From positions 1 to 32,363 of IMG/VR virus record IMGVR_UViG_3300037851_000932: 32,363 nt of DNA, one strand, 5' to 3'. Below are positions 1-32,363 of this stretch, piece by piece; position 1 is the stretch's first letter, and each line of letters begins with the position of its first letter. Source of the DNA: a virus (Duplodnaviria; Caudoviricetes). The notes beneath the pieces were generated by a model that saw only the letters and a program-made list of their open reading frames with translations, made no database searches and was not told where the DNA came from. The position numbers and the translations under genes are program-made.

Positions 1-127
1 CAGCGGCGACCTGTGGACCAGGGCGCGGAAGGACTTGTTCGCGCAGAACCTGATCGACATCGAGAACATCGTCCCTGCCCCGAACTCGTGGGCATCCAAG
101 ACATCCAGGATCATGTTCGACATCGTG
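1..127 (+). repeat. Terminal direct repeat, left copy (identical to 32237-32363)
   Basis: cagcggcgacctgtgg...gttcgacatcgtg matches exactly at both ends. 127 nt equals a common assembler k-mer length, so this is probably circular-contig overlap. Confidence 0.95.
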
Positions 128-3100
128 GGCCACAACACCATCGACATCTCCACCGTCCATGTGTGGGTCATGGGCGACGCGGCCTGGACGGGCGGCGCGT
201 TCGTCGCGCCGTACTCCGGCGTCACGGACTTCGCCACCGGGCGCAGGCTGCGCTTCGAGATCGCCTCGACCGACCCGTGGCCGTGGCAGACCAACGTGTC
301 CGTCAGGGTCGTCGCCAGCGACATGTTCGGGAACGGCGTGGACGAGACCTGGGAGTTCTCCGGCGACTCCGGCCCACCGTACATCCTGTGGGGCGATCCG
401 TGGTACGGCGGCCGCCTGGAGGGGGACGGATACCTCAACTTCTTCGTCACCGACGACAATGCGGGCGTGGACGGCTCCACGCTCGACGCCTATGTCGGCG
501 GCGAGTGGGCCGTAACCCTGGCCAACTGGCCGACCCCGATATTCAAGGCTCCGTACAACGGACCGCTCTCCGACGCCTACCAGGACACCCGCGACGGCAT
601 GGATGGCTACCATATCACGCTGCAGCGCACCAGCCCGTACACATCAGGGCACCAATGGAACCTGCGCGTCCTGTCGGACGACAGGCTCGGGCGGCACCAG
701 GACCAGACATGGCTCCTGAACACCATGCCGTACGTCGAGATCGTTTCCCCGGCCGACGGGTCGCACAACAACGCGCCGCATGCGCAGATGGAATTCTGGA
801 TTCTCGACGACGGGTACCTGCTCCAATCCTCCATCGACGCGTACGCGTCAGGCACGCTTGTGATCGAGCACGGAACCATCGTGACCGGTTGGACATTCTT
901 CGCTGGCGAGATCACGCCAGGCACCCATGATGGATATGACGGATACCATGTGATCCTCGTCCCGAGCCCTGCGTACGGAAACAACTGGCCGACGAACTGC
1001 GAGATGCGGATCATGGCGTCCGATTCGGACGGTTACACCATGGACAGCCGGTCGTGGGAGTTCCACACCGACAACACCGCGCCGAACCTGGAGAACATGT
1101 CCCCGGCTCCTGGATCGTCGAGGCAGCCGCTCGACTCGCTTGTGGTGTTCGATGTCGTGGACCACGAGTCGCATGTGGATAGCAACAACCTCTCCGTCGA
1201 GATCGACGAGGGCGACGGAGCGGTCACGGCCTACACCCACGCTGGAGGCTTCGTGTCCCCGTACGACGGTGGCTCGTCTTCGGTGGCGGCGATAACCGAC
1301 GGGTACCGCGTGACAATCCAGAAAACGGAGGAGTGGGAGACGAGCTGGATCAACATCGCCGTCCAGGCGTACGACCATGTCGGCAATGTCATGGACGATG
1401 GATGGGAATGGAACACGGGGTGGTGCCGTTTCGATCTGCGCGCCCAGTCGGGCGCCGCGAAGTCAGGGCACAAAATGACGGCAGGGACAGGCGGCGCGCC
1501 GACATGGCCGTCCTTCGCGTACAACGCCGCGTCATGCGTGGCGGCGTCCTGGCCGGCGTGGGACGGCTACGGCAACACGCTGACGGCATCCGGTTCCGGA
1601 TCCACCAGGCTGAACGCCGGCTCTCCGCTGAACAGCTCCCTGGACGACTCCGTCGTTTTCGACGGCTCGAGGACATACAGGAACTATGACGGCGATGTGA
1701 CCACACACGACTTCGCCGTGGAGTTGCTGGTCCGCACGCCGCCGAAATCGTCCGGGCACGGATACATCGTCCGCAAAGGGTTTTACTATCCCGGATGGAA
1801 CATCTCCGTCGAGGACGCTCCCGCCGACCCGTACGGATGGGTAGGCAAGCGCATTCGCTGCACCATGGGGTCGGCCAGCAGCCAGTTCTCGGTCGTGTCA
1901 AACACTTTGTGGTACGACACCTGGTACCATGTCCAGGTGCTGGCTGAGCGCAACGGCTATCTGTGTCTGATCGTCAATGGGGACATCCACTCATCGTCGT
2001 ACATCGGTTCGCTCGATGCCGTGTCGCTGACCACGACGCACGGTTTGGTGATCTCCGAGGCGCGGGTCGCCCTGGCGTTCATCCGCTTCTGGACGGCCGA
2101 GAACCTGGTCGGAGGGGGATTCGGGGCATCAATAACCAGGCGGTTCCGGCAGATATGCGGAGCGAATCCGCAGACCGCTGGGCTGGACACGGAGGCGCAG
2201 CGCGACAGGGCGTCGTTCAAGAACCTCGATTCCAAAGGATATGTCCATCGTGTCGGGGAAAACTGGATCGGCACCTGCATGCGCACGGATGCGTCGGTGG
2301 TTCCAACATGGCGCGAGGGGCTGCTCATCGAGGACGCCACAGCGAACTACTGCGGCAAAGGAGATTTCGAGTTCGGTGACTACACACAGGGCAAATGGTA
2401 CGGCTATCTCGGCTGGTCCATCTGGCGTCCGCTCGCCCCAAATCGCGTGTCGGACGCCCTGTACTGTTTCTGCGGAAATCCCTCGGTGTTTACATACGCC
2501 TCGTCATGGGAGGGCAGCGGGCCTGACCGCGTGGTGTACTCGGCATATGTCAAACCATCCAGGAACAACTACCTGTATTTGCGTCTTGATGCTTTTGGTC
2601 CTGTTCTCCATGTGTATGGCACTTATTCGGTGTGGTTGGATGATCCATTCTACATGATCGGGGTGTTCGACTTGACAGGCGCCGGCTCGGCCGCCATCTA
2701 CGACTACCATGGAGGATCGCTGGATCCGCAATCCGCAGCCGAGGAGGCTGGGATAGAACGACTGTCCGACGGCTGGTACAGGATCTGGGTGTCCGGTCCG
2801 TATTCAAAAATGATGAAGCACACTCCCGGCTACGCTCTAACCCCGCGCATACAGCCGTGTAAATCCTTGACCGACCTATCGGCTCCGTCCGGCTCGTACA
2901 GCCCCGGCGACGTGTGGTTCTGGTTCTGGGGGCCGCAGATCGAGAGGTCGGTGACGAACAAGCCAAGCAGCCTGTTCGATTGGGCCCACGACCCGCTGTA
3001 TCCGACCCGCGACCGCGAGCCGGACGATTTCGCGTTCTATTCGTCCTACAACTGCTGGGACGGCTACGGGCGCCTGCGCGCCGAGGTGGTCGGCAGAAAC

Positions 3101-3460
3101 GTCGGCTCGGAGTTGGCAACGACAGAGACGCCCGTGGTCCTGACGGACCTGGTGCCGCCGACAGGCAGGATATCCCTTGACATCGGGGTGTCGGCGGCCG
3201 ACACGCGGTTCGTGGACGGCGCAGCCGACACGACGCTGACGGGGTCGGGCGACATCCTGGACGGCGACATACACTCCATCGAGGCGGCCTACGATTCACT
3301 CGGCGCCGACCTGATCGTCGACAACGCGGTCGAGGCGTCGGGTGCCCCCGATGTTCCGTCCACGACGTCCGGGTACATCTACATCGGTTCCGACCGCCTG
3401 ACGGCGGGGCATTGCCCCGACCTGGCCATCAGGCGCGTGAAGATCTGGAACAAGGAGTGA
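35..3460 (+). CDS. Large virion fibre/spike protein (about four Ig-like repeats, LamG/ConA-like domain, C-terminal beta-sandwich region); true start at 32160 across the junction, about 1178 aa
   Basis: About four ~115-aa repeats (P.P.S...FD/F.V...PY.G...DGY...V.A.D..G...W.F) in the N-terminal ~460 aa. LamG-like segment DFAVELLV...WYHVQV...LIVNG. GLLIE..TANY motif typical of phage fibre proteins. The frame is open back through the terminal repeat to ATG 32160. Confidence 0.75.
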   Translation: MFAQNLIDIENIVPAPNSWASKTSRIMFDIVGHNTIDISTVHVWVMGDAAWTGGAFVAPYSGVTDFATGRRLRFEIASTDPWPWQTNVSVRVVASDMFGNGVDETWEFSGDSGPPYILWGDPWYGGRLEGDGYLNFFVTDDNAGVDGSTLDAYVGGEWAVTLANWPTPIFKAPYNGPLSDAYQDTRDGMDGYHITLQRTSPYTSGHQWNLRVLSDDRLGRHQDQTWLLNTMPYVEIVSPADGSHNNAPHAQMEFWILDDGYLLQSSIDAYASGTLVIEHGTIVTGWTFFAGEITPGTHDGYDGYHVILVPSPAYGNNWPTNCEMRIMASDSDGYTMDSRSWEFHTDNTAPNLENMSPAPGSSRQPLDSLVVFDVVDHESHVDSNNLSVEIDEGDGAVTAYTHAGGFVSPYDGGSSSVAAITDGYRVTIQKTEEWETSWINIAVQAYDHVGNVMDDGWEWNTGWCRFDLRAQSGAAKSGHKMTAGTGGAPTWPSFAYNAASCVAASWPAWDGYGNTLTASGSGSTRLNAGSPLNSSLDDSVVFDGSRTYRNYDGDVTTHDFAVELLVRTPPKSSGHGYIVRKGFYYPGWNISVEDAPADPYGWVGKRIRCTMGSASSQFSVVSNTLWYDTWYHVQVLAERNGYLCLIVNGDIHSSSYIGSLDAVSLTTTHGLVISEARVALAFIRFWTAENLVGGGFGASITRRFRQICGANPQTAGLDTEAQRDRASFKNLDSKGYVHRVGENWIGTCMRTDASVVPTWREGLLIEDATANYCGKGDFEFGDYTQGKWYGYLGWSIWRPLAPNRVSDALYCFCGNPSVFTYASSWEGSGPDRVVYSAYVKPSRNNYLYLRLDAFGPVLHVYGTYSVWLDDPFYMIGVFDLTGAGSAAIYDYHGGSLDPQSAAEEAGIERLSDGWYRIWVSGPYSKMMKHTPGYALTPRIQPCKSLTDLSAPSGSYSPGDVWFWFWGPQIERSVTNKPSSLFDWAHDPLYPTRDREPDDFAFYSSYNCWDGYGRLRAEVVGRNVGSELATTETPVVLTDLVPPTGRISLDIGVSAADTRFVDGAADTTLTGSGDILDGDIHSIEAAYDSLGADLIVDNAVEASGAPDVPSTTSGYIYIGSDRLTAGHCPDLAIRRVKIWNKE

Positions 3461-3466
3461 TGAGCC

Positions 3467-7914: not shown

Positions 7915-8065
7915 CTTTTCTCCCTTGGCAAAAATATATATACGCTTTTTTCTACGATGTCGACATCTATCGAGAAAATATTTACAACTACCTCACATCA
8001 TTGAGAATAAATCGTATGCGATCTTATATGTCCGAAATCTATCAATTATCCGCCATTTAGCCAGA
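7915..8065. promoter_or_regulatory. AT-rich divergent promoter region
   Basis: Markedly AT-rich island between the divergent arms. The minus strand has TCGACA-N17-TATATA (7963 to 7935). The 12-bp palindrome GATGTCGACATC (7956-7967) overlaps the putative -35. Confidence 0.6.
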
Positions 8066-8786: not shown

Positions 8787-9082
8787 GCGGGAAGTGGAGA
8801 CCATACCAGACGCAGTACACAGCCATCGTGGAGTGCACGAAGAATCTGTGGCTTGTGGTCGAGGACAAGGTCAACGCCATGGTCGGTGTGGTGCCGGTCG
8901 TGGCGTACGGGTGCGAGACGCGCTCGACCGAGTACGGTCGGAGCGACAAATGGGTCCCTCTCGTGCTCGAGCAGTGGGCTCTCGTGGATGCGGAGAGCGT
9001 CCCCGGCGCGATGGGCATCATCATGGGCAGGGGCGGCGAGCCGCCCGACGAGGAGACCATCAGGGGTCTCGTGGAGGAATAA
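8783..9082 (+). CDS. Hypothetical protein (MSGKWRPYQTQY...)
   Basis: Strong GGAGGAGAGGAG RBS and translational coupling. Confidence 0.65.
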   Translation: MSGKWRPYQTQYTAIVECTKNLWLVVEDKVNAMVGVVPVVAYGCETRSTEYGRSDKWVPLVLEQWALVDAESVPGAMGIIMGRGGEPPDEETIRGLVEE

Positions 9083-9738: not shown

Positions 9739-10076
9739 GGCCGCCGGTCGAGTGTGTGCTTGTGAACCACGCGAGGATCGGCCCGCTGGCGGGCATGATC
9801 CGGCAGGCCGACGGCCTGCTCATGGAGTGGGAGGAGAACGGCCGCGGCGTCGTGGTGACGGACACCAGGCAGGGCAACCAGTGGCTCATCCCGTGGACGA
9901 ACATCGCCAGCGTCAAGTTGGGCGAGGAGCCCAAGGCTCCGCCCGCCGGGACCGGCCCCGTGTCGCGCAAGGGCGGCAAACCGAAAGGCAAGCCGGTGGA
10001 GGCGCCGAAGCCGGCGCCGACCGGACCGCAGCCGTGCGACAAAAGGTCGCTGGCGCCGTTGATCGGGCTCAAATGA
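9735..10076 (+). CDS. Hypothetical protein (beta-rich N-terminus, Pro/Lys-rich tail)
   Basis: ATGA coupling on both sides. Contains LIPWTNIASV. Confidence 0.65.
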   Translation: MRPPVECVLVNHARIGPLAGMIRQADGLLMEWEENGRGVVVTDTRQGNQWLIPWTNIASVKLGEEPKAPPAGTGPVSRKGGKPKGKPVEAPKPAPTGPQPCDKRSLAPLIGLK

Positions 10077-11431
10077 ACCTCGTCGATGTGGTCGCGGAGC
10101 TCGGGCGCCGCAGGCGCCGCATCGGGCTCCTGGAGGGTTTGCATCCCGGCCAGCGCAGGATCCTGGACGCCATGGCGTCCAACCGCTTCATCGCCGTCCG
10201 CAGCCCGCGACGCTGGGGAAAAAGCGAGGGCGCGCTTCGCATCGGCCTGTCGGTGGCCGACAGGCTGAACGCCCGCTGCCTCTACCTCTCGCAGTACCGC
10301 ACCAACGCCAAATCCATCGCATGGCCTATAGCCCTGGACCTCAACGAGCGCCTCGGCTGGCAGCCGAACCTGGTGGAACTCGCCCTGCGGGGCGACGGGA
10401 ACCGCGAACTGCTGGTGGCGGGGGCGGATCGCCCCGACCTGGCGCGGCTGCTGCGCGGCTGGAAAAACGCCATTGTCATCCTGGACGAGGCGCAGGACTG
10501 GTCCATCGACCTGAGGTCGTTCATCAACAGCATACTTCGTCACACATTGACCGACCTGCGCGGACACATGATCGTCCTTGGGACACCTGGCTGGCAGGAG
10601 GACGGCTTCTACTGGTCGGCAACGCAGGGGCTTGAGCCCGAGTGGTTTCCGATCATCGGGGGGATGCTGGAGAACCCGCACACGGCGGAGCAGCAGCGCG
10701 AGGAGATGGCGGCCGCGCTGCTGGCCAACCCTTTGGCGGACAGGGAGCCGTGGTGGAAACGCGAGTACCTTGGCCTGTGGGTTGCTGATTCGCGCGCGCT
10801 GGTCTACCCGTTCTCGGACAGGAACATCATCCATGGCTGGGAGAACGCGCCGAGGCGGCGCATATTGGCCGTGGACTGGGGCTCGCAGAGCCCGTCGGCG
10901 TTCGTGGTGGCCGAGTTCGACACGAAGTCCAGCGACAAACTGGACTATGTTGATGCGTTCCAGCAGGCTGGGATGTCGCTGGATGATTACATCCGCGTCG
11001 TGTCCGATTTCCGCGACCGCTGGTCGCCCGTGCTGACGGTGGCGGACCCCGGCGGGACGAACCGCGCCCTCACGGACGAGATCGCGACGCGCTGCCGCGT
11101 GCCCATCCAGAATGCCGAGAAGGTGGACAAGGAGGCCGCGATCGCGGCCATGGTGCGCGACATCAGCCTGGGGACGGTGCGCGTCGCGTCGCCGCAATGC
11201 GAGCCGCTGCTCGACTGCTGGCGCAAGCTGGTGTGGTACAGGCGTCCCGACGGGACGCGCGAGGAGAGGGGCGAGAACCACCTGGCCGATTGCGCCCTGT
11301 ACGCCCGCCGCGCCGCGTGGAACTGGACGCACAAGCCGGCTCCGCCAAGGGAGACCGAGGAGGAGCGGATGTTCAGGGAGGCGCGCGAGCGCGCCGCGAA
11401 GACCTTGAAAAGACAACGCGGTAGGGTCTAA
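10073..11431 (+). CDS. terL: Terminase large subunit
   Basis: LHPGQ adenine-binding motif, Walker A RRWGKS, Walker B IVILDEAQD, coupling motif LGTP, RNase H-like nuclease LAVDWG and C-terminal NHLADCALY. Confidence 0.93.
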   Translation: MNLVDVVAELGRRRRRIGLLEGLHPGQRRILDAMASNRFIAVRSPRRWGKSEGALRIGLSVADRLNARCLYLSQYRTNAKSIAWPIALDLNERLGWQPNLVELALRGDGNRELLVAGADRPDLARLLRGWKNAIVILDEAQDWSIDLRSFINSILRHTLTDLRGHMIVLGTPGWQEDGFYWSATQGLEPEWFPIIGGMLENPHTAEQQREEMAAALLANPLADREPWWKREYLGLWVADSRALVYPFSDRNIIHGWENAPRRRILAVDWGSQSPSAFVVAEFDTKSSDKLDYVDAFQQAGMSLDDYIRVVSDFRDRWSPVLTVADPGGTNRALTDEIATRCRVPIQNAEKVDKEAAIAAMVRDISLGTVRVASPQCEPLLDCWRKLVWYRRPDGTREERGENHLADCALYARRAAWNWTHKPAPPRETEEERMFREARERAAKTLKRQRGRV

Positions 11432-11469
11432 CCTACCAATATTCCTGTATTTGGTGGAGGGATAAGCGC

Positions 11470-13242: not shown

Positions 13243-13251
13243 GAGCGAGAC

Positions 13252-14121: not shown

Positions 14122-14327
14122 CAGGGACCGATGGTCCCGCATGAGCAAGAAAGGCGAAGAAGATGAAAGTGCTGAATACGAGGAAGGATCCGCTCGCGCT
14201 GGCGCGGGCGGTCGAGGCGGCCTTCGATGCTGCCGTGGAGAAGTGGGAGCAAGAAGACCGAGAAGCAATGTCTCCATCATCGGAAGATCCGGGGTCGCGG
14301 ATAGCGAGCCGGACAGGAGACATGACA

Positions 14328-21841: not shown

Positions 21842-23374
21842 ATGGCGTACGGATACAGCGGATACTCGAACAGCTCGCCGGGCTCCGACCCGATGGCCGG
21901 CCAGAAGCAATACTGGGACAGGAGCAACCCGGCGGGATCGTCCGAAAACTGGTACGAGTACACCAAAGGGATGTACCGTCCCGCGCCCGAGGCTTTCGAC
22001 ACCCCCGGCGGTGCCGGTCCGCAGGGCTCGTATGTCAAGGGCTACGCCGGAATGGGCTTCATGGCCCCCCAGGACGAGGACAAGTACCGCAGTTGGATCT
22101 CTCAGGGTTACGGTCTGGCGGGAGCCTCGCGCGGCGACCAGGAGCGAATGCTGGACTACATCAAAGCCGTGGCCGAGGGCAATCTCGGCGGCGGACGCAA
22201 AACGCTCGCCCAGCAGGCTCAGGAGCAGTCCCTGGCCCAGATCCAGGCCTCCTCGACGGCTGCCGCCAGGTCCGGAGCCTCCCCGGCGCTTCAGCGCGCG
22301 GCGATGTACCAGGGCGGGGCTGCCTCGCAGCAGGCCGCCGCGAGCGGCGCCCTGGCCAGCATGAAGGAGCAGCAGGACGCGCAGCGGCTCGCCCTCCAGG
22401 CCGCCGGGCAGATGAGGACGCAGGACATCCAGCAGGCCGTGGCGGCCCAGCAGGGGCTGTTGTCGTCAACGCAGGCCGAGTCCATGAAGAAGGAGATGAC
22501 CGCAAAGTACATCGCCCTCGGCTTGTCCGATCGCGAGGCCGAGAGGCGAGCCAACATGGCTCTCGAGGCCATGCGCATGCAGTCGTGGGAGTCGCAGCAG
22601 GGCAGGGCGATGCAGCAGTCGGCCATCGACCAGAGTTTCTGGAACTCGCTGCTTGGCGGCGGAATCGCGGCAGGCGGGGCGCTGCTTGCCGCCTTCTCCG
22701 ACAAGCGCGGCAAGAAAGACATCGAGCGCGCCGACATGCGGCGCTACCTGACGTCCTGCGCGGGCGCGAAGACAGGCATCACGGACACCACCGGTTTCCT
22801 GGACGATCTGTACGACGAGCCCGGCGTGGTTGTGTCGAATGTCGACGAACCGGGCGTCGCCGGAACCAAAGCGACCCCCGCGACCACTGCGGACAACTCC
22901 GCGAAATACAAAGCCGCTGGCGGAGCCCTCACATCATTCGGCACCAGCATCATGGCGCAGGGCAAGAACGCGGCGCAGGACATGATCCAGGCCGCAGGCG
23001 AGAAGAACCAGGAAAGGATGAACGATTTGTTCAACAGCCTGATGTCGATGCCAGGCGGAACATACGCCGAGGCCGCCCCGGCGGCCGTGAGCGACATGTC
23101 GGCCAAGGAGGGCGAGACGCCGGTGAACGACTTCATGGATGCGCTCCAGGCCTACAGGTACCGCTACAAAGAACCTGAGAAGCATGGGCGCGGCGAGCGC
23201 ATCGGCGTGATGGCGCAGGACATGGAGAAAAGCAAGCTCGGGGATTCCCTTATTGTCAAGGACTCCAAAGGTCTGCGGCACATCGACATGGATCCGCAGA
23301 AGTTCAATCCGCTCGTCCTGGCCAGCCTGGCCGACCTGAACAAGCGGCTGCGCAAGGTCGAGTCGGAGGGCTGA
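21842..23374 (+). CDS. Ejection/internal virion-like protein with C-terminal intramolecular chaperone (peptidase S74) domain
   Basis: Ala/Gln-rich helical body and hydrophobic GG-rich segment. SDKRGKKDI motif, then SDMSAK...YRYRYK...IGVMAQDME...LLASLADLNKRL-type C-terminus, the S74 signature. GGAGG RBS. Confidence 0.75.
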   Translation: MAYGYSGYSNSSPGSDPMAGQKQYWDRSNPAGSSENWYEYTKGMYRPAPEAFDTPGGAGPQGSYVKGYAGMGFMAPQDEDKYRSWISQGYGLAGASRGDQERMLDYIKAVAEGNLGGGRKTLAQQAQEQSLAQIQASSTAAARSGASPALQRAAMYQGGAASQQAAASGALASMKEQQDAQRLALQAAGQMRTQDIQQAVAAQQGLLSSTQAESMKKEMTAKYIALGLSDREAERRANMALEAMRMQSWESQQGRAMQQSAIDQSFWNSLLGGGIAAGGALLAAFSDKRGKKDIERADMRRYLTSCAGAKTGITDTTGFLDDLYDEPGVVVSNVDEPGVAGTKATPATTADNSAKYKAAGGALTSFGTSIMAQGKNAAQDMIQAAGEKNQERMNDLFNSLMSMPGGTYAEAAPAAVSDMSAKEGETPVNDFMDALQAYRYRYKEPEKHGRGERIGVMAQDMEKSKLGDSLIVKDSKGLRHIDMDPQKFNPLVLASLADLNKRLRKVESEG

Positions 23375-23375
23375 C

Positions 23376-25646
23376 ATGGCGCTCGATCCGGAGGCCATGG
23401 CGCGGATGGGCGGAACCGACCCGGAGTTCGCCGAGAAGCTGCGCAAGGTCATGGAGAGGTTGTCGGAACAGGGTTTTCAGCCGAGGGTGTCCAACGCTTT
23501 TCGCACGCCCGAGCAGCAGGCCGAGAAGGTCAGGCTCGGGTACGCGAAAAACCCCGACCCCGGCACGCATGGTGCTGGCCTGGCCGCCGACGTGATCGAC
23601 AAGCGGTACGGATGGGAGGACAGCAAACGGAACGCCAAGTTCTTCGCGGCCCTGACCGACGCGGCGATGGCCGAGGGCTTGACGGCCGGCGGATCGTGGT
23701 TCGGGCAGGGCGGAACGCGCCTGAAGCCGACGCGTCCGGCCCTGTGGAACAAGTACGGGATCGGATGGGATCCAGCACACATAGAGTCGAAGACACCGGT
23801 GCCGCAGGCGGCGCGCGCCGAGAGAGGTGGAAAAATGGCTGGCATGCCAGATGCCGGGGTTGGACCCGGAACAAGGCCGGAATGGCTTCCGGCCGACACG
23901 TCGCTCGACAAGCTGAACACGATCATCTCTGGGCTGGAGACGAGGGTGTCGGCCGAGGAGGACAACACCACCCGCAACACATTGATGGCGCAGCTTGAAG
24001 CCGCCAAACGGTACAGGCTCAATTTCTCCGGGCCGCACCAGCCGCCCGGCGGAACTGTCAATCCGCCGTCGAACGAGCCGATCTCGCTGAATCCTCCGGT
24101 GAAGGTGCTTCCGCTGGAGACCGGGTACAAGAGGCTGCCAGGCAAAACAGCGGCTCCGCCGTCCACGGGCGCCCCTGTCGCCGCCCCGTTCGCCGCCGAC
24201 GTGCCGAAGATCACGCTTGGCGCGCAGGGCCGCTCCGTGTCCACCACGAGCGGCGTGCCGTACCCGGCCGAAGACCTGGCCAGGAGGGAGGAGCTTGGCG
24301 GCACAATGCTTGGCGAGCAGCTCAAGCTGGCCAACGCCAGGCGCGAGCGTCTCCAGAAAATCGCCGAGAAGCGCATCGGTCTCCTGGACGAGGCCGACAA
24401 GACCATCGCCAGGTTCTCCCAGTCGGCGCAGGACGATCTCGACAGGCTCACGGGTCTTGCCGGTGGAAAACCCGTGCTCGGGTTGCCTCCGGGGGCTGTC
24501 GAGGAGCCCGGCATGACCAGCGCGGCCCAACGGGCCCGCGCCGGGCTCAAGGGCGGCGAGGTCGAGAAACCGGCCGTTCCAGAGGCCCGCAAAGGCTTGA
24601 TCGCCAAGATGGAGGAGCGCTTCAACGAGGCTGGCGCCCAGCTCGACGCCGCCAGGAAGGATCTGGCCGATTTCAAACTTGATCCGCAGAGAGGTGTCGG
24701 CATCCAGGTCGTCATCGCCGGCATCGCCGACGCGATGCGGATCATGGGCTCGTCGATCGCGTCCGGCGGACGCAATCTCGGCTCTGGACCGTCCTATGTT
24801 TCGCAGGTGTTGGATCGCAACCTCCAGGCGCAGAAGATCGAACTCGAGAAGATGATGAAGATCCACGGAATGACGAAAGAACAGCGCGATTTCACCTGGA
24901 AAGCGTGGAACGAGTTCAAGGACGAGAAGAAAGCTATCGAGCTCCGCATGGCGCAGCTCGACGCCGCCAGGCTGGCCAACATGACATCGAGGATCGACAT
25001 CAAGGCGGCGGCCGCCGAGGAGATCAACAAAATGGGTCGCGACCTGTCGGCGCTGCGGTACGCCACCGGTGTCGGCCAGGTCGAGGCGGAGATCAAGGCT
25101 AAGGAGAAGGCGGCGGGCAAGACGACCACCGAGGTCTCCGAGACGCGGAAGGAGGCAGTGAACCCGCTGGCCGTGGCGCAGGCCAAGGCGCAGGTGGGCG
25201 GAGGCAAGATCATGCCGCCAGCCACCATCCGCAACCTGGCCGAGGACAGAAGCGTCATCTACGCGGCCATGGCCATGGCGAACAAGATAAGGAACAAAGA
25301 CCTGACTCCGATCAAGGGGATCCCATGGCTTCCCACGGACGCCAACACCTTGATGCCGCAGATCAAGTCCCTGGCGCGCCAGATCGAGCGCAGGCTCGGA
25401 ACGGACAGCGGGAACCTGGCGCAGCAGGAGGGACAGCTCATGGTGGAGTCGGTGACCGGTCGCGAATGGAACAAGGCCGCGCAGGCCCACAGGCGGTTCC
25501 TGGAGATCGTCGGCAGGCTTCGCCGCAAATACGACGAGGAGGTCGGGATGTACGGAAGCCAGGGATACCGGACGACAGGCCTCGGTCTTCCCGAAGACGC
25601 GCTGAAACGGTTCGATTTCGAAGCCAAAAAGAAGATCACGGAGTAG
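23376..25646 (+). CDS. Internal virion protein with N-terminal M15-type (VanY/L,D-peptidase-like) peptidoglycan peptidase
   Basis: FRTPEQQ...HGAGLAADV...GG.W...WDPAHIE (H-x6-D...H zinc ligands) in the first ~140 aa. The remainder is helical/coiled coil. Confidence 0.75.
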   Translation: MALDPEAMARMGGTDPEFAEKLRKVMERLSEQGFQPRVSNAFRTPEQQAEKVRLGYAKNPDPGTHGAGLAADVIDKRYGWEDSKRNAKFFAALTDAAMAEGLTAGGSWFGQGGTRLKPTRPALWNKYGIGWDPAHIESKTPVPQAARAERGGKMAGMPDAGVGPGTRPEWLPADTSLDKLNTIISGLETRVSAEEDNTTRNTLMAQLEAAKRYRLNFSGPHQPPGGTVNPPSNEPISLNPPVKVLPLETGYKRLPGKTAAPPSTGAPVAAPFAADVPKITLGAQGRSVSTTSGVPYPAEDLARREELGGTMLGEQLKLANARRERLQKIAEKRIGLLDEADKTIARFSQSAQDDLDRLTGLAGGKPVLGLPPGAVEEPGMTSAAQRARAGLKGGEVEKPAVPEARKGLIAKMEERFNEAGAQLDAARKDLADFKLDPQRGVGIQVVIAGIADAMRIMGSSIASGGRNLGSGPSYVSQVLDRNLQAQKIELEKMMKIHGMTKEQRDFTWKAWNEFKDEKKAIELRMAQLDAARLANMTSRIDIKAAAAEEINKMGRDLSALRYATGVGQVEAEIKAKEKAAGKTTTEVSETRKEAVNPLAVAQAKAQVGGGKIMPPATIRNLAEDRSVIYAAMAMANKIRNKDLTPIKGIPWLPTDANTLMPQIKSLARQIERRLGTDSGNLAQQEGQLMVESVTGREWNKAAQAHRRFLEIVGRLRRKYDEEVGMYGSQGYRTTGLGLPEDALKRFDFEAKKKITE

Positions 25647-25649
25647 CGC

Positions 25650-27701
25650 ATGGTCGGTCTTTACGAGGAGGGGGCGGCACCGCCCCCGCGTCCAAGGGAG
25701 GAGATCGAGCGCGAGCGCGCGGCCGAGACGGCCGACGCCGCGTCCATCGTGGACAGGCTGTACGCGGCCGCGTCCGCCGGCGAGCCCCTGCCTGCCGCGC
25801 CCGAGATGAAGCGGGCCCAGATCGTCGATGGCGACAAAGCGAGCGTCATCAACCCGGACACGGGCACGGTGTCGCTCATTCCCCTGAAGGATCTCGACGA
25901 GGCCATATCGCTCGGGTTCGTTCCCGAGAACCACACCGAGTACGTCAAACGCAAAACGGACGAGCACTACCGCGAGGCGACCGGCGAGGCCGCCGCCACG
26001 GGAGCCCTCGGCTCCCTGACGCTTGGCTTGTCGAACGTGGTCGGAGGCGAGGAGTGGCGCAGGCACGCGGCCAGGCTGAAGGCGGAAAGCCCCACGGCGA
26101 CGATGCTCGGAAGCCTTGGCGGCATCGCCGCCTCGATGGGCGTGGGGGTTGGTGGCCTGGCGGCCTCCGGCGGCAGGACATTGGCCGAGAAGATCATCGC
26201 AAAAGGCGGCGGAAAGCTGGCAGAATCGCTTGCGCAGGGCGGCAGGTTGGCCGGGGCAGTCACCGGGGCGTCCGAGGCGGCAGCCGCCGGACTTCCCATC
26301 GGTTTCGGCGAGTCGATGGGGGCGCAGGCCCTTGAGCATCCGGAGACCGGCGAGTTCTCGGCCACCAAAGCGTTGAAGGCCGGCGTGCTGGCCGCCGCGT
26401 TCGGGGCAGGCTTCAGCCTGGCCGGATCGGCCCTTGGCTGGGGCGGGTCGGCCATCAAGTCGAAAGCGCAGCAGGTTTTCCTGAAACGCTCCGGATACGC
26501 GGGGATGGACAAGAACATCCTCGCCGCCACGGCGAGGGAGACTGCCCCGTTCAGGTCCGCGCTGGACGCCATCGACAACCAGTTGGGCGGAAACGTGGCC
26601 AGCACCGTGAGATCTGCGGCCGACGCGCTTGGAAAAAAAACGACAACCGCCGACGACTTCAGGATCGTGCTGGCCAACCAGTTGGCCGGAACGGGAAGGG
26701 ACGAGCTTCTCGCGCTGGCCAAGACCATGAACAAGGGTTTGCCGGCGTCGGAGAGGCTCGGACGCGACGTGCTGTCGTCGGCAATGGTCGGCAACCCAGC
26801 TCCGCTGGTGGACGGTGTGGCCGACATGGCGGCTCGCAGCGGACAGGCGCTCGCCAAACTCGAGAAAGCCAAGGCGGCGTACGCGGCGGCGTTCCCGTCA
26901 CTCGACAAGCTGATGGGGCTTCCGCCCGGCATGGGCAAGGTGGCCCTTGGTGTCGGAGCCGGTGTGCTGTCCGGGAACCCGGTGGTCGGTGTGCTGTCGT
27001 CATTGGCCCCCATCGCCCTGCGAAAACTGGTTGGCACGCCGTACGCGTTCACCAAAGGGATGATGAGGCAGGATGTGGCGAACATGCTGACAAGGATCCT
27101 GGGAATATCGGGGATCAAGGCCGGAGCCGAGACGATGTCGGGCAAGGAGGTCTCGGAGCTGCGCGAGGACCTGGCGAAGACACCGCCGATCGACGCCCCC
27201 GCGCTGGCGCAGAGCCTGACGGATGGCGGATGGTCCGCCCCGCAGGCGGCCTCGTACGCCAAGTTCCAGTCGTGGCGCGACAGCAGGATACGCGACGAGG
27301 TGGACAAGGCGTCCGACAACCCGATGTCCAGGGCGGCGCTGAGCTCCAGCGTGGTGGTCCTGAACGATCCGCGCATCGCGCTGGCGAAGCTGGCAGACGG
27401 GTCGGCCAAGCCGTCCGACATCAACATCCTGCGCGACATCATGGAGACTTTCGAGCCAGGCTCATGGGCACCAATGGAGGAGATCGCCAGGAACACCCTT
27501 GACACCGCGAGGCACGAAACGCTTCCGGCGAACACGCTGGCCATCATGCGCATGGTGCTCGGCAAACCGGCGTCGCCGCTGGCGGCGATCGGTGCTCCGC
27601 CTGCCGGACCGGCGAAACCGGCAGGGGGCAAACTCGGGCTCGACACGGCGTCGCTGATGACGCAATCCCAGAAGCTCCAGAAGGGGCTCGGGGAGGCGTA
27701 G
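25650..27701 (+). CDS. Internal virion / ejection protein
   Basis: Ala/Gly-rich with several hydrophobic GxxxG segments. Third gene of the post-nozzle block. Confidence 0.65.
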   Translation: MVGLYEEGAAPPPRPREEIERERAAETADAASIVDRLYAAASAGEPLPAAPEMKRAQIVDGDKASVINPDTGTVSLIPLKDLDEAISLGFVPENHTEYVKRKTDEHYREATGEAAATGALGSLTLGLSNVVGGEEWRRHAARLKAESPTATMLGSLGGIAASMGVGVGGLAASGGRTLAEKIIAKGGGKLAESLAQGGRLAGAVTGASEAAAAGLPIGFGESMGAQALEHPETGEFSATKALKAGVLAAAFGAGFSLAGSALGWGGSAIKSKAQQVFLKRSGYAGMDKNILAATARETAPFRSALDAIDNQLGGNVASTVRSAADALGKKTTTADDFRIVLANQLAGTGRDELLALAKTMNKGLPASERLGRDVLSSAMVGNPAPLVDGVADMAARSGQALAKLEKAKAAYAAAFPSLDKLMGLPPGMGKVALGVGAGVLSGNPVVGVLSSLAPIALRKLVGTPYAFTKGMMRQDVANMLTRILGISGIKAGAETMSGKEVSELREDLAKTPPIDAPALAQSLTDGGWSAPQAASYAKFQSWRDSRIRDEVDKASDNPMSRAALSSSVVVLNDPRIALAKLADGSAKPSDINILRDIMETFEPGSWAPMEEIARNTLDTARHETLPANTLAIMRMVLGKPASPLAAIGAPPAGPAKPAGGKLGLDTASLMTQSQKLQKGLGEA

Positions 27702-27778: not shown

Positions 27779-28141
27779 ATGGGAAACAGGATCCTTGCTG
27801 GCTTCGACGGCTACATGGTGATGAGCGCCGACGGCTACTCCGACGACATCTCGATCGGGCACGCGCGCAACGTGTCCATCCAGACGGACGTCGTGACAAC
27901 CGACGGGTACGGATACATCCACATCCAATGCTCGAACAACCGCGAGAACTGGGTCGATGTCTGGTTCGTGGATGAGAATGGCACCGTCCAGCAGTACAAG
28001 GAGGTGCTCAAGGCCTCCTTCAGCCACATGTTCGACATCAGCGACATCGCGGCCGGCTGGGCGCGGGTGAAGTACGAGAAGAACGACGGCTACGCCAGCG
28101 GGACGGGCGGCCTGTCCTACTATGTGAATCTCAAGAAATGA
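27779..28141 (+). CDS. Small beta-sandwich virion protein, paralogue of 31798..32163
   Basis: Shares Q.SNNRENW.D and R..YE motifs with 31798..32163. GGAGG RBS. Four DGY in 120 aa. Confidence 0.7.
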   Translation: MGNRILAGFDGYMVMSADGYSDDISIGHARNVSIQTDVVTTDGYGYIHIQCSNNRENWVDVWFVDENGTVQQYKEVLKASFSHMFDISDIAAGWARVKYEKNDGYASGTGGLSYYVNLKK

Positions 28142-28722: not shown

Positions 28723-30918
28723 ATGGGCGCACGCTGGACCACCAACGGGCTTGGCGACCAGACAACCTGTTTTTCCAACGGTTTTCAAACCGGGTACACC
28801 ACGGGGTACGCCGATGGCTATCAGTTCGGCCTGTGGGTCGGCCCGGGGTTTGCCGACGGGTACAACCAAGGTTTCTACATCGACGGCTATGCGCACTGGA
28901 CTCCGTTGGCGTTCCAGGAGGGCATCAATTCTGTCTGGCTGTCGCGTTTCGATGATGGCTATTGGTATTGCTCGCCTTTGGCGTACGCCGACGCGTACGA
29001 CGCGTATGTCGGTCCTGCTTTCCAGCAAGGGATCAACTCCGTCTGGCAGGCCAGGTTCGATGACGGCTATTGGTATTGCTCCCCGCTGGCATACGCCGAC
29101 GCGTACGACGCGTATGTCGGTCCAGCGTTCGCCTCCGGGTACAACCAGGGTCATGTCGCTGGAATCACGGACGGCTACGCTGTTTGGGTTCCGCTCGGGT
29201 TCCAGGAGGGCGTCAATTCCGTCTGGCTGTCCAGGTGGGAGGATGGCTACTGGTACTGCAGTCCTCTTGCGTATGCCGACGCCTATGACGCGTATGTTGG
29301 ACCCGCTTTCACCTCGGGATACAACCAGGGGCATGTCGCCGGCATCACGGACGGCTACGCCATCTGGAGCCCTCCGGCTTTCATCGAGGGGCAGAACGCC
29401 GCATTCCTGCCGAGGTGGCAGCAGGGATTCGCCGATGCGTACGGGACATGGACGCCTTTGGCTTTCGTGGAGGGGCAGAACGCCGCATTCCTGCCGAGGT
29501 GGCAGCAGGGATTCGCCGATGCGTACGACGGGTACTACAACGCCGGACTCGACGACGGATACAGCCGCGACGGGTACTGGGGCAGGAACTACCAGAATGA
29601 CGGGTACTATTTCCTCGGCCTGAACCGCGGGACATCCGACGCCTACGGCATCCTCGTCCCGGTCGCGTTTGAGCAGGGGCAGAACTCCGTCTGGCAGTCG
29701 CGCTACGACGATGGCTACGCCGACGGCGGACCGGCGGGATACACCAGCGGCTACAACCAAGGGCATGTCGCGGGCATCATCGACGGGTACGCCGTGTGGT
29801 CACCGCCAGCTTTTGTCGAGGGGCAGAACAGTGTGTTCTTGTCCCGCTGGAAAGACGGATACAGCGACGGCTATGGCCCCGTGGACGGGAACCCTCCGGA
29901 TGGCTATTTCTGGATGGGGTACAACCGTGGCTGGAACGCCTCGACCGGAGGGTACGACTCCGGCTATGCTGATGGCTACGCCGATGGTTATGATGGGTAC
30001 TACCTGCCTGGTTGGGCCGACGGCTACAACAGGGGGTTGTGGCTTGATGGGTACGACCATTGGGTGCCGATCGGCTACGACTATGGTGAGAATGCGACCT
30101 GGCAACCGCAGTACGATGCGGGGTATGCCGCCGCCAAGGCGGCCGGGTTCGGCGGTGTTCGGAATTTGCATGCCGTCCTCAAAGGAGTAGCGTGCACCTG
30201 CCGCTATGTCGGAGCTGACTGCACTGTCGCGACATCGTGGGACGCCGATGGATATGGAAACAACCTCGGCATCCAGGGGTCTGGATCGACCCCGACCAAA
30301 ACGGCGAACAAGTATTTCCCGGGCGACGACGACGCAGCCATCGCATTCCAGGGCGGCGGTGGGAAATACTACAGGGATTCAGGCACCACGCAGGGAAATC
30401 TCGGGACGAACGATGCCGTGTTCGAACTCGTCTTCATGATCACATCGAGCCACGCCAACAACTACCGCGCAGCGGCGAAATACACCGGTGGCGGATCGCC
30501 GATACAGGGTTGGGCGATCTGGGTCTCGACGGGAACCGACGGGGTGGTGCTCTACCTGCGCTACAACGCGCACGAGGCATATGTGAAAGCCACTATGCCC
30601 GTGGCGGTCATCAAAAGCAACCTGATGCACGCGATGTGTTTCGTGGATCGCAGCGATGTGGCAAGATGGTACATCAATGGACAGCAGGTCGGAGCCGATG
30701 TCACGGTCAGTTCCTTGTCAGCCGACGACATCTCGCCTTCGCTCAACATGGCTCTTGGGGCGCAACCGGACGGGCTGTACGGCATGAACGGCGATATGTG
30801 CTATTTCTCCCTGTGGACAAACTCTGCCGGGTGGTTCGCCAAGACGGACTGGGACGCCATCGTGCGCGACCGCTACCACAAACTGCTGCGCGGAGCAGGC
30901 CCTGGGTCCAGCGTGTAG
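28723..30918 (+). CDS. Fibre-like protein with long G/Y/D repeat stalk and C-terminal LamG/ConA-like domain
   Basis: About 470 aa of GxxxG/DGY repeats built from repeated blocks. C-terminal DAVFELVF...HAMCFVDR...WYINGQQV domain resembles the LamG segment of 35..3460. AGGAG RBS. Confidence 0.75.
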   Translation: MGARWTTNGLGDQTTCFSNGFQTGYTTGYADGYQFGLWVGPGFADGYNQGFYIDGYAHWTPLAFQEGINSVWLSRFDDGYWYCSPLAYADAYDAYVGPAFQQGINSVWQARFDDGYWYCSPLAYADAYDAYVGPAFASGYNQGHVAGITDGYAVWVPLGFQEGVNSVWLSRWEDGYWYCSPLAYADAYDAYVGPAFTSGYNQGHVAGITDGYAIWSPPAFIEGQNAAFLPRWQQGFADAYGTWTPLAFVEGQNAAFLPRWQQGFADAYDGYYNAGLDDGYSRDGYWGRNYQNDGYYFLGLNRGTSDAYGILVPVAFEQGQNSVWQSRYDDGYADGGPAGYTSGYNQGHVAGIIDGYAVWSPPAFVEGQNSVFLSRWKDGYSDGYGPVDGNPPDGYFWMGYNRGWNASTGGYDSGYADGYADGYDGYYLPGWADGYNRGLWLDGYDHWVPIGYDYGENATWQPQYDAGYAAAKAAGFGGVRNLHAVLKGVACTCRYVGADCTVATSWDADGYGNNLGIQGSGSTPTKTANKYFPGDDDAAIAFQGGGGKYYRDSGTTQGNLGTNDAVFELVFMITSSHANNYRAAAKYTGGGSPIQGWAIWVSTGTDGVVLYLRYNAHEAYVKATMPVAVIKSNLMHAMCFVDRSDVARWYINGQQVGADVTVSSLSADDISPSLNMALGAQPDGLYGMNGDMCYFSLWTNSAGWFAKTDWDAIVRDRYHKLLRGAGPGSSV
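28900..29870 (+). repeat. Intragenic modular repeats
   Basis: Block A (FQ.G.NSVW..R..DGYWYCSPLAYADAYDAYVGPAF) x3, block B (SGYNQGHVAGI.DGYA.W.P) x3 and block C (EGQNAAFLPRWQQGFADAY) x2. The two C copies are essentially identical at DNA level. Confidence 0.85.
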
Positions 30919-30927: not shown

Positions 30928-31152
30928 ATGGAGACAACCGAACTGGCAGACATGCTGCTGTCGAAACTGGACGGCTACGCCGGAACTCCGATGTTCCCGT
31001 TGTCGGAGAGCGAACGGCTCGCGGTGCGCCTGCGCGCCGCGTTCGGCGAGAACGTCCGCACCGACGGTGTCGATTGGGAGGTGTGCGGCAAATTCCTTAC
31101 CGCCGAGGAATGCGAGCTCCTGCTCGCCGAGATAGCGGGGAGGGACCGATGA
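30928..31152 (+). CDS. Small acidic hypothetical protein (possible fibre-associated protein)
   Basis: AGGAGG RBS and ATGA coupling to the next gene. Confidence 0.6.
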   Translation: METTELADMLLSKLDGYAGTPMFPLSESERLAVRLRAAFGENVRTDGVDWEVCGKFLTAEECELLLAEIAGRDR

Positions 31153-31379
31153 TCGACTCCGCACTGACAGCCGCCCTGGTGGGCGTGATCATTGTGCTGA
31201 CCAAGGTGATCGAGCATCTGCTGGCCAAGCGCGCCGAGGCGCGCAAGCCCGCCGCCAGCCCATACAACGGGCACACGGACAAGATCTGCGACGCGGCCGA
31301 CAAGCTGCACGACGCGGCGATCAAGATCGACATCACGGCGGAGCGCCTGGAGCGCGCCGTGGAGAAAATGGAGCGGTAG
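31149..31379 (+). CDS. Membrane protein with one N-terminal TM and coiled coil (holin/lysis-associated candidate)
   Basis: MIDSALTAALVGVIIVLTKVI hydrophobic helix and C-terminal heptads. GGGAGG RBS. Confidence 0.6.
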   Translation: MIDSALTAALVGVIIVLTKVIEHLLAKRAEARKPAASPYNGHTDKICDAADKLHDAAIKIDITAERLERAVEKMER

Positions 31380-31796: not shown

Positions 31797-31797
31797 G

Positions 31798-32163
31798 ATG
31801 GCAAACACGCTGACGAGGGAAGCGATCGCGCTGTCGGGGACGATCGACCTCGACGCCGACGGCTACTCGTTCTACCACAACATCGGCAAAGAGCCGTACT
31901 GGTCGATCCAGATCCTCGTCGAGCCGGGCACGGCGGCCGATGGCTACTGCTATGTCCAGGGTTCGAACAACCGCGAGAACTGGCGCGACATCGCTTGGCA
32001 AAACCCCGACGGATACGCTGCCGATTCCTTCCATGTTGTGCCGCTTCTCGGCATCCATGAGCTGATCAACTCCCCCGGTCTGGCCATCGGGTACATCCGC
32101 CTGCGCTACGAGAGGCAGGCCAACACCGGCACGCTCCGGTACTGGGTCGCGGCGGGCAAATGA
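31798..32163 (+). CDS. Small beta-sandwich virion protein, paralogue of 27779..28141
   Basis: VQGSNNRENWRD and YIRLRYE motifs. GGAGG RBS. Three DGY. Confidence 0.7.
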   Translation: MANTLTREAIALSGTIDLDADGYSFYHNIGKEPYWSIQILVEPGTAADGYCYVQGSNNRENWRDIAWQNPDGYAADSFHVVPLLGIHELINSPGLAIGYIRLRYERQANTGTLRYWVAAGK

Positions 32164-32363
32164 CAATCTACGATCCCATCAGCCACCGGCGGGCATCGTC
32201 CGGAATGAGTGTGGAGCGCGGCGGCGAGCCGCACTCCAGCGGCGACCTGTGGACCAGGGCGCGGAAGGACTTGTTCGCGCAGAACCTGATCGACATCGAG
32301 AACATCGTCCCTGCCCCGAACTCGTGGGCATCCAAGACATCCAGGATCATGTTCGACATCGTG
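32160..32363 (+). CDS. 5' part of the large fibre/spike protein continuing at 35..3460
   Basis: ATG at 32160 overlaps the TGA of the upstream gene (ATGA). It reads MTIYDPISHRRASSGMSVERGGEPHSSGDLWTRARKDLFAQNLIDIEN, in frame with the 35..3460 ORF. Confidence 0.8.
   Translation, partial: MTIYDPISHRRASSGMSVERGGEPHSSGDLWTRARKDLFAQNLIDIENIVPAPNSWASKTSRIMFDIV
32237..32363 (+). repeat. Terminal direct repeat, right copy (identical to 1-127)
   Basis: Exact match to positions 1-127. Confidence 0.95.

What the first reader, a model, noticed from the sequence alone, without database searches (positions are those of the whole stretch)
1..32363. A genome-wide Asp-Gly-Tyr (DGY) tag confined to outward-facing virion proteins: candidate virion surface-modification or recognition system
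Seen (hand count of DGY): 9 in 35..3460, 1 in the capsid, 2 in 15689..16102, 4 in the adaptor, 6 in the nozzle, 4 in 27779..28141, 23 in 28723..30918, 1 in 30928..31152 and 3 in 31798..32163, about 53 in total. About 30 fall in ~3,700 aa even without the repeat protein, where rough residue frequencies predict only 1-2. I found none in ~3,300 aa of terminase, portal, scaffold and the three ejection proteins, although those proteins are also poorer in Tyr. The codons vary freely (GACGGATAC, GATGGCTAC, GACGGGTAC, GATGGATAT, GACGGTTAC, GACGGCTAT), so selection acts on the protein and not on a DNA site. The motif occurs in apparently unrelated folds, and the variant DAY is also frequent in the two fibres. 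Inference: DGY is a convergently acquired surface signal. It could be a site for post-translational modification (Tyr O-glycosylation, sulfation or cross-linking, or Asp-Gly aspartimide/isoAsp chemistry), or a docking or metal-binding turn coating the whole particle. I do not know of a description of such a motif.
Basis: partly seen in the sequence, partly recalled or inferred. Interest (0 to 1): 0.9.

Follow-up and report, generated by a model that had tools for sequence, protein, structure and literature searches.

The report
Small phage copies giant phage's tag
The outer proteins of this complete 32-kb phage carry Asp-Gly-Tyr about 25 times more often than chance, and the phage, which has no recognisable replication or sugar-adding genes, shares both this tag and a likely late-promoter motif with one lineage of giant phages, so it is probably a satellite virus that would borrow the giant's enzymes to mark, likely sugar-coat, its own particle.

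Summary
In detail: 53 DGY in the outer virion proteins against 2.1 expected, and 30 against 1.3 without the repeat protein. The sites are in frame, change position between orthologues and mark one clade only; DGF, NGY and EGY are not enriched.

This scan noted the same tag earlier in huge phages (8 notes). I confirmed it there, beside a conserved GT4 glycosyltransferase gene (56 of 56 loci).

New here: the window is a complete SU10-like podovirus with no glycosyltransferase, replication, integration or endolysin gene found. Two near-complete DGY-rich relatives are the same, while six DGY-poor relatives have replication or recombination genes. An exact copy of a bipartite motif (CTATCAAT-N6-SCAT) sits at the head of its virion operon. 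In the huge phages this motif precedes genes of one subclade only. That subclade shares the DAY/DSY tolerance and several genes, and occurs in the run that holds the window.

Best reading: a helper-dependent satellite whose DGY sites are acceptors for the helper's tyrosine glycosylation. No modification, helper dependence or host is shown.

The parts
1..127 (.). Direct terminal repeat (copy at 32237..32363); the genome is a complete circle of 32,236 bp
35..3460 (+). Fibre or appendage protein with tandem Ig-like domains; 9 DGY, 3 DAY; the frame starts at 32160 and wraps; Ig-like domains are homologous to DGY-bearing huge-phage proteins
3782..4474 (-). SAM methyltransferase; 36% identical to a huge-phage enzyme that lies in a sugar-biosynthesis cluster (GT29, cytidylyltransferase, HAD) behind the same upstream motif; not found in 4 DGY-rich relatives
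8039..8056 (+). Exact copy of the huge-phage subclade motif CTATCAAT-N6-SCAT (26.6 bits), at the head of the virion operon; predicted helper-read late promoter
11433..11450 (+). One-mismatch copy of the motif (16.0 bits) just upstream of the portal gene
10073..14121 (+). Terminase large subunit, SU10-type portal and scaffold; no DGY
14163..15551 (+). SU10-type major capsid protein (likely start 14328); 1 DGY at a site that reads DGY or DAY in 8 of 30 close homologues
15689..16102 (+). Small protein after the capsid gene; 2 DGY; homologues in DGY-rich relatives carry 1-2 DGY
16366..18324 (+). Adaptor with three SU10_adaptor repeats; 4 DGY
18719..21826 (+). Tail nozzle (best fold match SU10 nozzle, E 4e-18); 6 DGY, of which 4 are in loops or at loop exits of the model
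21842..27701 (+). Three predicted ejection proteins; no DGY
27779..28141 (+). Small beta-sandwich protein; 4 DGY; paralogue of 31798
28723..30918 (+). Repeat-rich fibre; 23 DGY, 9 DAY; C-terminal part is homologous to a LamG-domain protein of huge phage G414
30928..31152 (+). 74-aa protein; 1 DGY
31149..31379 (+). Small protein with a hydrophobic N-terminus; 49% identical over 53 aa and 86% identical over 50 nt to a gene of huge phage G415
31798..32163 (+). Jelly-roll beta-sandwich (model pLDDT 83; nearest PDB match is the SPbeta protein YomS, E 1e-4); 3 DGY, at a hairpin tip, a loop exit and a strand start

Best explanation
DGY is a selected three-residue tag on the outer virion proteins, and this podovirus is likely a satellite of a DGY-tagged huge phage whose glycosylation enzymes would attach sugars to the tagged tyrosines. 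Shown: the tag; its restriction to one clade; its change of position; its sharing with huge phages; the matching upstream motif; and the failure to find replication or glycosyltransferase genes here. Inferred: in a co-infected cell the helper's sigma factor would transcribe the operon from 8039, the helper's replisome would copy the genome, and the helper's conserved GT4 (best candidate) and its sugar cluster would modify D-(G>A/S)-Y sites. The satellite's own capsid and tail would then carry the helper's coat.
For: Enrichment 53 vs 2.1. Asp and Tyr are both required: DGF 0, NGY 1 and EGY 0 in the window's outer proteins; in huge-phage loci DGY 714 vs 41.4 but DGF 69 vs 50.6, NGY 59 vs 41.4 and EGY 10 vs 24.5. 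Clade restriction: G006 40 vs 3.0, G007 52 vs 2.7, G008 43 vs 3.0, against 0-3 vs 1.5-2.4 in six distant genomes; nozzles 32 vs 3.3 in 9 close and 14 vs 9.7 in 39 distant sequences. Huge phages: G001 91 vs 16.3, G414 72 vs 17, G415 106 vs 14. A GT4-led sugar cluster directly follows their DGY-richest baseplate-region genes, and 56 of 56 assessable GT4 loci have DGY-rich upstream genes. No glycosyltransferase, replication initiator, primase, helicase, polymerase, annealing protein, integrase or endolysin among 139 non-structural ORFs of the window, G007 and G008, whereas 6 of 6 DGY-poor relatives have an initiator, primase, helicase loader or annealing protein. Motif: 49 of 72 CTATCAAT hits in G002, G414 and G415 carry the second box (about 6.5 expected), and 36 of 54 strong sites lie 10-150 nt before a same-strand ORF. 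The window has 2 matches vs 0.10 expected; G007 scores 24.6 and G008 19.8 bits in the matching region; 0 of 6 DGY-poor genomes reach 17 bits. The motif precedes GT4 in only 4 of 56 loci. G414 and G415 of that subclade share the DAY/DSY excess with the podoviruses, while G001 does not, and they encode a sigma70-type factor 57% identical to each other and 25% to that of G001. The window shares 6 ORFs with the huge phages, against 0-2 for DGY-poor relatives. The run holding the window has a contig about 83% identical to the G002 capsid gene (G414 and G415 79%, G001 72%) and a syntenic tubulin-region contig.
Against: No modification, promoter activity or helper dependence is shown, and the host is unknown. 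The GT4-DGY link is shared ancestry within one clade, not independent co-occurrence, and several of the 56 loci are near-duplicates. The motif was spotted by eye and its matrix was trained on the huge phages. Only 3 DGY-rich podoviruses could be tested for it, because G006 and G009 lack the region. G008's copy has an imperfect second box, and G007's lies at a contig end. G002 carries the motif but shows little DAY/DSY excess (2 vs 1.7 and 4 vs 2.0). G414 and G415 were chosen because they hit podovirus fibres and HNH genes, which inflates gene sharing; DGY-poor G010 shares the LamG domain too. One close nozzle (P0004, 46% identical) has no DGY and a distant one (P0008, 27%) has 3; L119 and L155 (capsid 49-50% identical) are barely enriched. 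One of six nozzle sites is in a strand and one in a short helix of the model, and no solvent exposure was computed. No CRISPR spacer links the two groups (12 spacers tested; no further arrays found). Co-occurrence rests on one run with no control run. Missed divergent replication genes cannot be excluded.
Confidence: 0.45

Rival explanations
1. The podovirus is helper-linked, but DGY acts unmodified as a many-copy docking or metal-binding turn. It would bind the host surface or matrix, or a partner on the helper particle.
For: Up to 23-25 copies in single fibres suit avidity. Asp and Tyr can ligate metals or stack on sugars (general knowledge). The motif, gene-sharing and missing-gene evidence is the same as for the best explanation.
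Against: There is no shared flanking context or DxDxDG pattern. Sites lie on capsid, adaptor and nozzle alike, in unrelated folds, and move freely, which fits a sequon read on an unfolded or looped chain better than a shaped binding site. A sugar cluster adjoins the tagged genes in huge phages.
Confidence: 0.22
2. The two lineages only share a host. A host enzyme reads DGY and a host sigma factor reads the motif, so the podovirus is an independent phage that replicates with host proteins.
For: Gene exchange needs only a shared host. There is precedent for a host enzyme modifying a phage tail protein at a short motif (MepM, ELS motif; PMC13445384, passages). The host is unknown, so its genome could not be tested.
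Against: The motif is restricted to one huge-phage subclade with its own sigma factor. It occurs only 17 times in 401 genomes of the phylum of a Polyangiaceae bin, at most twice per genome. The nearest clusters of the GT4 are 93-100% viral in 6 of 7 rows shown, and it was not found in those 401 genomes at E 1e-30. That phylum is only a guess for the host.
Confidence: 0.2
3. A helper or phage enzyme modifies DGY, but not with sugar: phosphorylation, sulfation, methylation or Asp-Gly aspartimide chemistry.
For: The window has a methyltransferase. G001 encodes a kinase, a tyrosine phosphatase and ATP-grasp enzymes.
Against: The methyltransferase is missing from 4 of 4 DGY-rich relatives searched, and its homologue sits in a sugar cluster. 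DG followed by other residues is not enriched, and DAY and DSY are tolerated, which argues against Asp-Gly chemistry. No sulfotransferase was seen among the 224 of about 500 G001 ORFs scanned.
Confidence: 0.1
4. DGY is an ordinary beta-turn preference of beta-rich structural proteins, inflated by repeats.
For: Many sites sit in turns. Repeats and paralogues multiply sites.
Against: 30 vs 1.3 without the repeat protein. NGY and DGF are not enriched. The 39 distant nozzles of the same family have 14 vs 9.7. Positions turn over while the number is kept.
Confidence: 0.03

Closest known systems
Virion glycosylation of mycobacteriophages (Freeman et al. 2023; seen only as cited in PMC12619734)
   Same: Sugar-adding enzymes acting on virion proteins; glycosyltransferases beside structural genes, as in the huge phages here.
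   Different: There the glycans are reported at the C-termini of capsid and tail tube, and the enzymes are the phage's own (recalled). Here the putative acceptor is an internal tripeptide on at least nine proteins, and this genome has no glycosyltransferase.
Satellite phages MiniFlayer and MulchRoom of Streptomyces (PMC10690885, passages)
   Same: They have their own encapsidation genes, lack key replication genes and depend on a much larger helper.
   Different: This genome encodes a full SU10-like tail (adaptor, nozzle, predicted ejection proteins, fibres) and copies a helper upstream motif and a surface tag. The putative helper is 340-440 kb rather than about 130 kb (PMC13359090). Dependence here is inferred only.
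Virophages of giant eukaryotic viruses (PMC11389934 and PMC13359090, passages)
   Same: They encode their own structural genes but need a giant virus for replication; sharing of late promoter motifs with the helper is recalled for Mavirus and Sputnik, from no call.
   Different: These are tailed phages of bacteria with no homology to virophages; no shared protein tag is known to me for virophages.
Tyrosine O-glycosylation of S-layer proteins in Paenibacillus and Thermoanaerobacter (PMC2943079, passages)
   Same: Tyr as a sugar acceptor on a surface lattice.
   Different: There the transfer is thought to be co-secretional, by an oligosaccharyltransferase, and the word sequon does not occur in that review. 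Virions assemble in the cytoplasm.
Host MepM methylation of a mycobacteriophage tail protein (PMC13445384, passages)
   Same: A virion protein modified at a three-residue motif by an enzyme that the phage does not encode.
   Different: One protein, a host enzyme and methylation; no virion-wide tag.
Phage SU10 (Kuravirus-like podoviruses)
   Same: Portal, capsid and adaptor match the SU10 Pfam families, and the nozzle model best matches the SU10 nozzle.
   Different: Sequence identity is low (8-9% in the nozzle fold alignment), no cultured phage matches the capsid protein, and no replication module was found.

Membership tests
Mycobacteriophage-type virion glycosylation | Glycosyltransferases encoded by the same phage | tested here: not met
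   None in the window, G007 or G008; present in huge phages G001 and G414
Mycobacteriophage-type virion glycosylation | Acceptor at the C-terminus of capsid and tail tube | tested here: not met
   DGY sites are internal and spread over nine proteins
Mycobacteriophage-type virion glycosylation | Glycan detected on virion proteins | not testable with these tools
   Needs particles and mass spectrometry
Satellite phage (MiniFlayer/MulchRoom type) | Own encapsidation genes | tested here: met
   Terminase, portal and capsid
Satellite phage (MiniFlayer/MulchRoom type) | Key replication genes absent | tested here: met
   0 hits among 139 ORFs of three genomes, against hits in 6 of 6 DGY-poor relatives; divergent genes could be missed
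Satellite phage (MiniFlayer/MulchRoom type) | Grows only with the helper | not testable with these tools
   Uncultured; indirect support from the motif and one co-occurrence
Satellite phage (MiniFlayer/MulchRoom type) | Codon usage matches the helper's tRNAs | not tested
   The actual helper genome is not in hand
PICI, cf-PICI, PLE and P4 satellites | Integrase and own replicase; uses the helper's capsid or tail | tested here: not met
   No integrase or replicase found; own capsid and tail genes
SU10-like podoviruses | SU10 portal, capsid, adaptor and nozzle | tested here: met
   PF23899, PF17236, PF24175; Foldseek best hit 7z4b
Ordinary Asx-Gly beta-turn | Asn-Gly and other third residues enriched alike; site conserved across the fold family | tested here: not met
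S-layer tyrosine O-glycosylation | Sugar on Tyr, transferred by an oligosaccharyltransferase during secretion | not testable with these tools
   Only the Tyr requirement is seen (DGF not enriched)

The most novel reading that the evidence does not exclude
A virophage-like podovirus of huge phages. It keeps a complete virion of its own, has dropped replication and endolysin genes, copies the helper's late promoter, and has seeded the helper's D-G-Y glycosylation sequon across its outer proteins, so that it leaves the cell wearing the helper's sugar coat. DGY would be the first virion-wide tyrosine glycosylation sequon, read by a viral GT4 and usable as a three-residue tag.
Probability: 0.4. Interest if true: 0.95.

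Novelty: categorically new. Interest (0 to 1): 0.86.

Why it matters
It turns an odd sequence bias into a testable three-part system: a tag, a candidate enzyme and a freeloader. A recent review states that it is unclear whether satellites become more common with larger helpers and that few such systems are known (PMC13359090). This gives sequence signatures for finding satellites of huge phages that look like ordinary phages: a helper promoter, a helper tag and no replication genes. The small genome is also a natural control for the earlier huge-phage notes. It has the tag but not the enzymes, so the reader of the tag must come from outside this genome. A cytoplasmic tyrosine glycosyltransferase with a three-residue sequon would be a useful glyco-engineering tool.

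Tried and rejected
Single-protein scans of viral contigs found no relatives. No cultured phage matched the capsid protein; the huge-phage sheath matched only distantly.

The GNAT acetyltransferase was rejected because DGY-poor relatives have it too. A DNA site was rejected.

The DGYDGY DNA scan returned 85 stretches, mostly chance or Gly-Tyr low-complexity proteins; about 8 were huge-phage structural regions. The collection-wide motif scan was mostly chance background: of 80 loci examined none was a new DGY-rich phage, and the one podovirus hit lies inside its capsid gene. A de novo search recovered the motif in G414 only, not in G415, G002 or G001. A portal scan gave no new DGY-rich genome.

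CRISPR spacers gave no link. Host: the capsid profile hit 4 of 401 genomes in the phylum of a Polyangiaceae bin, all distant, with no DGY seen in the ORFs called in those loci (two called in wrong frames), so the host is not assigned. The capsid tree did not show DGY as one clade (5 changes; 77 of 500 shuffles as low; quick tree of the first 60 of 120 sequences).

No RNA holder was listed. Rfam found nothing in the window or in two relative loci. My note that G010 lacks replication genes (after) was wrong and was corrected.

Paper searches for the motif found no description (related searches). The library lacks most subscription papers, and no supplements were read.

Full report
OBSERVATION. 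The window is a complete 32,236-bp circle with a 127-bp terminal repeat. It encodes an SU10-like podovirus: portal, capsid and adaptor match SU10 Pfam families, and the nozzle model best matches the SU10 nozzle. Without the repeat fibre there are 30, against a shuffle mean of 1.29 and a maximum of 8 in 5,000 shuffles. All 55 plus-strand DGY are in frame, in 14 codon combinations, so this is not a DNA site. The absence from inner proteins is only a lack of enrichment (0 vs 0.3), three sites lie in other ORFs, and repeats and paralogues make some sites non-independent.

SPECIFICITY AND EVOLUTION. The motif is exact. In the window's outer proteins DGF, NGY and EGY occur 0, 1 and 0 times, while DAY is raised (12 vs 1.8). 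In three related podoviruses DAY (59 vs 6.4) and DSY (20 vs 6.2) are raised too (proteins were picked for having DGY). The trait marks a clade. G006, G007 and G008 have 40, 52 and 43 DGY against about 3 each. Six distant relatives have 0-3 against 1.5-2.4. Of 35 viral and 83 metagenome or genome capsid loci, strong enrichment appeared only at 46% or more capsid identity, apart from one locus with 5 sites in a single 158-aa ORF (L194). In nine close nozzles, 32 sites fall at 16 positions (3.3 expected); 39 distant nozzles have 14 (9.7 expected). Exceptions: P0004 has none, P0008 has three, and L119 and L155 are weak. Models place most sites in loops or at strand ends (4 of 6 in the nozzle); exposure was not computed.

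THE SAME TAG IN HUGE PHAGES. A DNA scan for DGYDGY led to unrelated huge phages. DGY is the top tripeptide in G001 (91 vs 16.3), G002 (42 vs 6.7), G004 (30 vs 2.4), G414 (72 vs 17) and G415 (106 vs 14), mostly in the structural module. Eight earlier notes of this scan report the same for huge phages; none was found for a small phage. A sugar cluster follows the DGY-richest genes directly: GT4, several GT2, GT10, STELLO and epimerases in G001 (224 of about 500 ORFs scanned), and GT4, GT2, GT47-like and dehydratases in G414. The GT4 is conserved. Of 67 GT4 loci, 56 had enough upstream sequence, and all 56 are DGY-rich there (714 vs 41.4), while the downstream enzymes are not (18 vs 28.1). This is shared ancestry, not independent proof.

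THE SMALL PHAGE LACKS THE ENZYMES AND MORE. No glycosyltransferase was found in the window, G007 or G008. Among 139 ORFs from their non-structural regions there is also no initiator, primase, helicase, polymerase, annealing protein, integrase or endolysin. All six DGY-poor relatives have an initiator, primase, helicase loader or annealing protein, and three have an endolysin hit (97 of their ORFs were scanned). The window's methyltransferase is not shared by four DGY-rich relatives. It is 36% identical to a G414 enzyme lying beside GT29 and a cytidylyltransferase, so it may tailor a glycan (inference).

A SHARED UPSTREAM MOTIF. Reading upstream regions showed CTATCAAT-N6-(G/A/C)CAT. In G002, G414 and G415, 49 of 72 CTATCAAT hits carry the second box (about 6.5 expected). 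Of 54 strong sites, 36 lie 10-150 nt before a same-strand ORF, including the sheath and fibre genes and the methyltransferase homologue. The window has an exact copy at 8039-8056, at the head of the virion operon (26.6 bits; 17 of the 54 huge-phage sites score higher), and a one-mismatch copy before the portal gene (2 vs 0.10 expected). G007 (24.6 bits) and G008 (19.8) have it in the matching region. G006 and G009 lack the region. No DGY-poor genome reaches 17 bits, and the best hit (16.6) is antisense inside a gene. The motif is subclade-specific: it precedes GT4 in 4 of 56 loci, with 3 strong sites in 392 kb of G001 against 25 and 22 in G414 and G415. G414 and G415 also show the DAY/DSY excess (10 vs 2.5 and 13 vs 3.4; 21 vs 3.6 and 8 vs 3.5) that G001 lacks and G002 barely shows, and they encode their own sigma70-type factor. 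The motif occurs 17 times in 401 genomes of one bacterial phylum, so a chance match in 32 kb of such DNA is roughly 2 in 10,000 (my arithmetic from that call). That it is a late promoter is inferred from position only.

GENE SHARING AND CO-OCCURRENCE. The window shares six ORFs with these huge phages: Ig-like domains with DGYDGY at the homologous place, a LamG domain, the methyltransferase, a small protein (86% identical over 50 nt) and two HNH-type genes. DGY-poor relatives share 0-2. The comparison is biased because G414 and G415 were chosen from podovirus hits. The one run holding the window (possibly its source) has a contig about 83% identical to the G002 capsid gene over 662 nt, closer than G414 or G415 (79%) or G001 (72%), and a contig syntenic with its tubulin region. 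No control run was laid.

MECHANISM. Most likely the podovirus co-infects with a huge phage of this subclade, which would supply late transcription, replication and a tyrosine-directed glycosylation; selection would then seed D-(G/A/S)-Y over the satellite's outer proteins (0.45). Rivals: an unmodified docking or metal-binding motif (0.22); a shared host supplying both reader and sigma factor (0.2); another modification (0.1); an ordinary turn (0.03). The host is unknown, and no CRISPR link was found.

COMPARISON. It works like the MiniFlayer and MulchRoom satellites (own encapsidation genes, missing replication genes; PMC10690885, passages) and like virophages (PMC11389934 and PMC13359090, passages), but has a full tail and copies a helper motif and tag. 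It is not a PICI-type element. It resembles mycobacteriophage virion glycosylation (cited in PMC12619734, passages; the original paper was not read) but fails the own-enzyme and C-terminal tests. Tyr O-glycans are known from S-layers (PMC2943079, passages), and a host enzyme modifying a phage tail motif from PMC13445384 (passages). A myxophage preprint (10.64898/2026.09.14.751636, passages) does not mention DGY. Searches found no description of the motif; subscription papers and supplements were not seen.

VERDICT. The motif is real, selected and undescribed in the searched literature. The new element here is a small, enzyme-less phage tied by tag, upstream motif and genes to one huge-phage subclade. 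Interest 0.86.

Noticed in passing
window 16366-18324; L121:9293-12457; L122:11996-17116: The adaptor gene is tandemly multiplied in most DGY-rich relatives (462-1,707 aa, up to 8 SU10_adaptor domains), against about 230-360 aa in DGY-poor relatives; G006 keeps a single 222-aa copy. This suggests an extended neck.
   Followed up: partly
L235:1300-1430 and L238:4130-4330: G007 and G008 share a conserved stretch of about 100 nt in the non-structural region (seen by eye); no Rfam match. Possibly a structured RNA or an origin.
   Followed up: partly
window 15620-15680; upstream of the homologues in L234, L236 and L237: After the terminator-like hairpin behind the capsid gene, all four genomes show a TAAA(A)AC...G(C/T)AT(C/T)C-like element before the small DGY gene.
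   Followed up: no
window 8853-9738: A cold-shock protein and a GNAT acetyltransferase precede the terminase. The cold-shock gene is also in G007 and G008; the GNAT is in DGY-poor relatives too.
   Followed up: partly
window 929-952 and L363:11935-11958: A 24-nt exact match, encoding DGYDGYHV, between the window fibre and a G415 Ig-domain gene.
   Followed up: partly
L235:17499-19850 and L318:6952-8418: A G007 fibre shares a His-rich repeat module with a G414 protein lying just upstream of the GT4 (67% identical over 116 aa).
   Followed up: partly
window 23376-23900: The N-terminus of the second ejection protein has a weak VanY/M15-type peptidase hit (E 0.0075, below the cut-off), a possible virion-borne wall hydrolase.
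   Followed up: no
G001 (L086, L090, L096, L099): Huge phage G001 encodes Cas5/Cas7/Cas8-type genes with a 13-repeat array, a major-vault-protein homologue, PARP and a tubulin.
   Followed up: no
L132, L136, L137, L146 capsid genes; L194: Some distant relatives have two DGY in the capsid protein, and L194 has five in one 158-aa ORF. These may be separate small gains.
   Followed up: no
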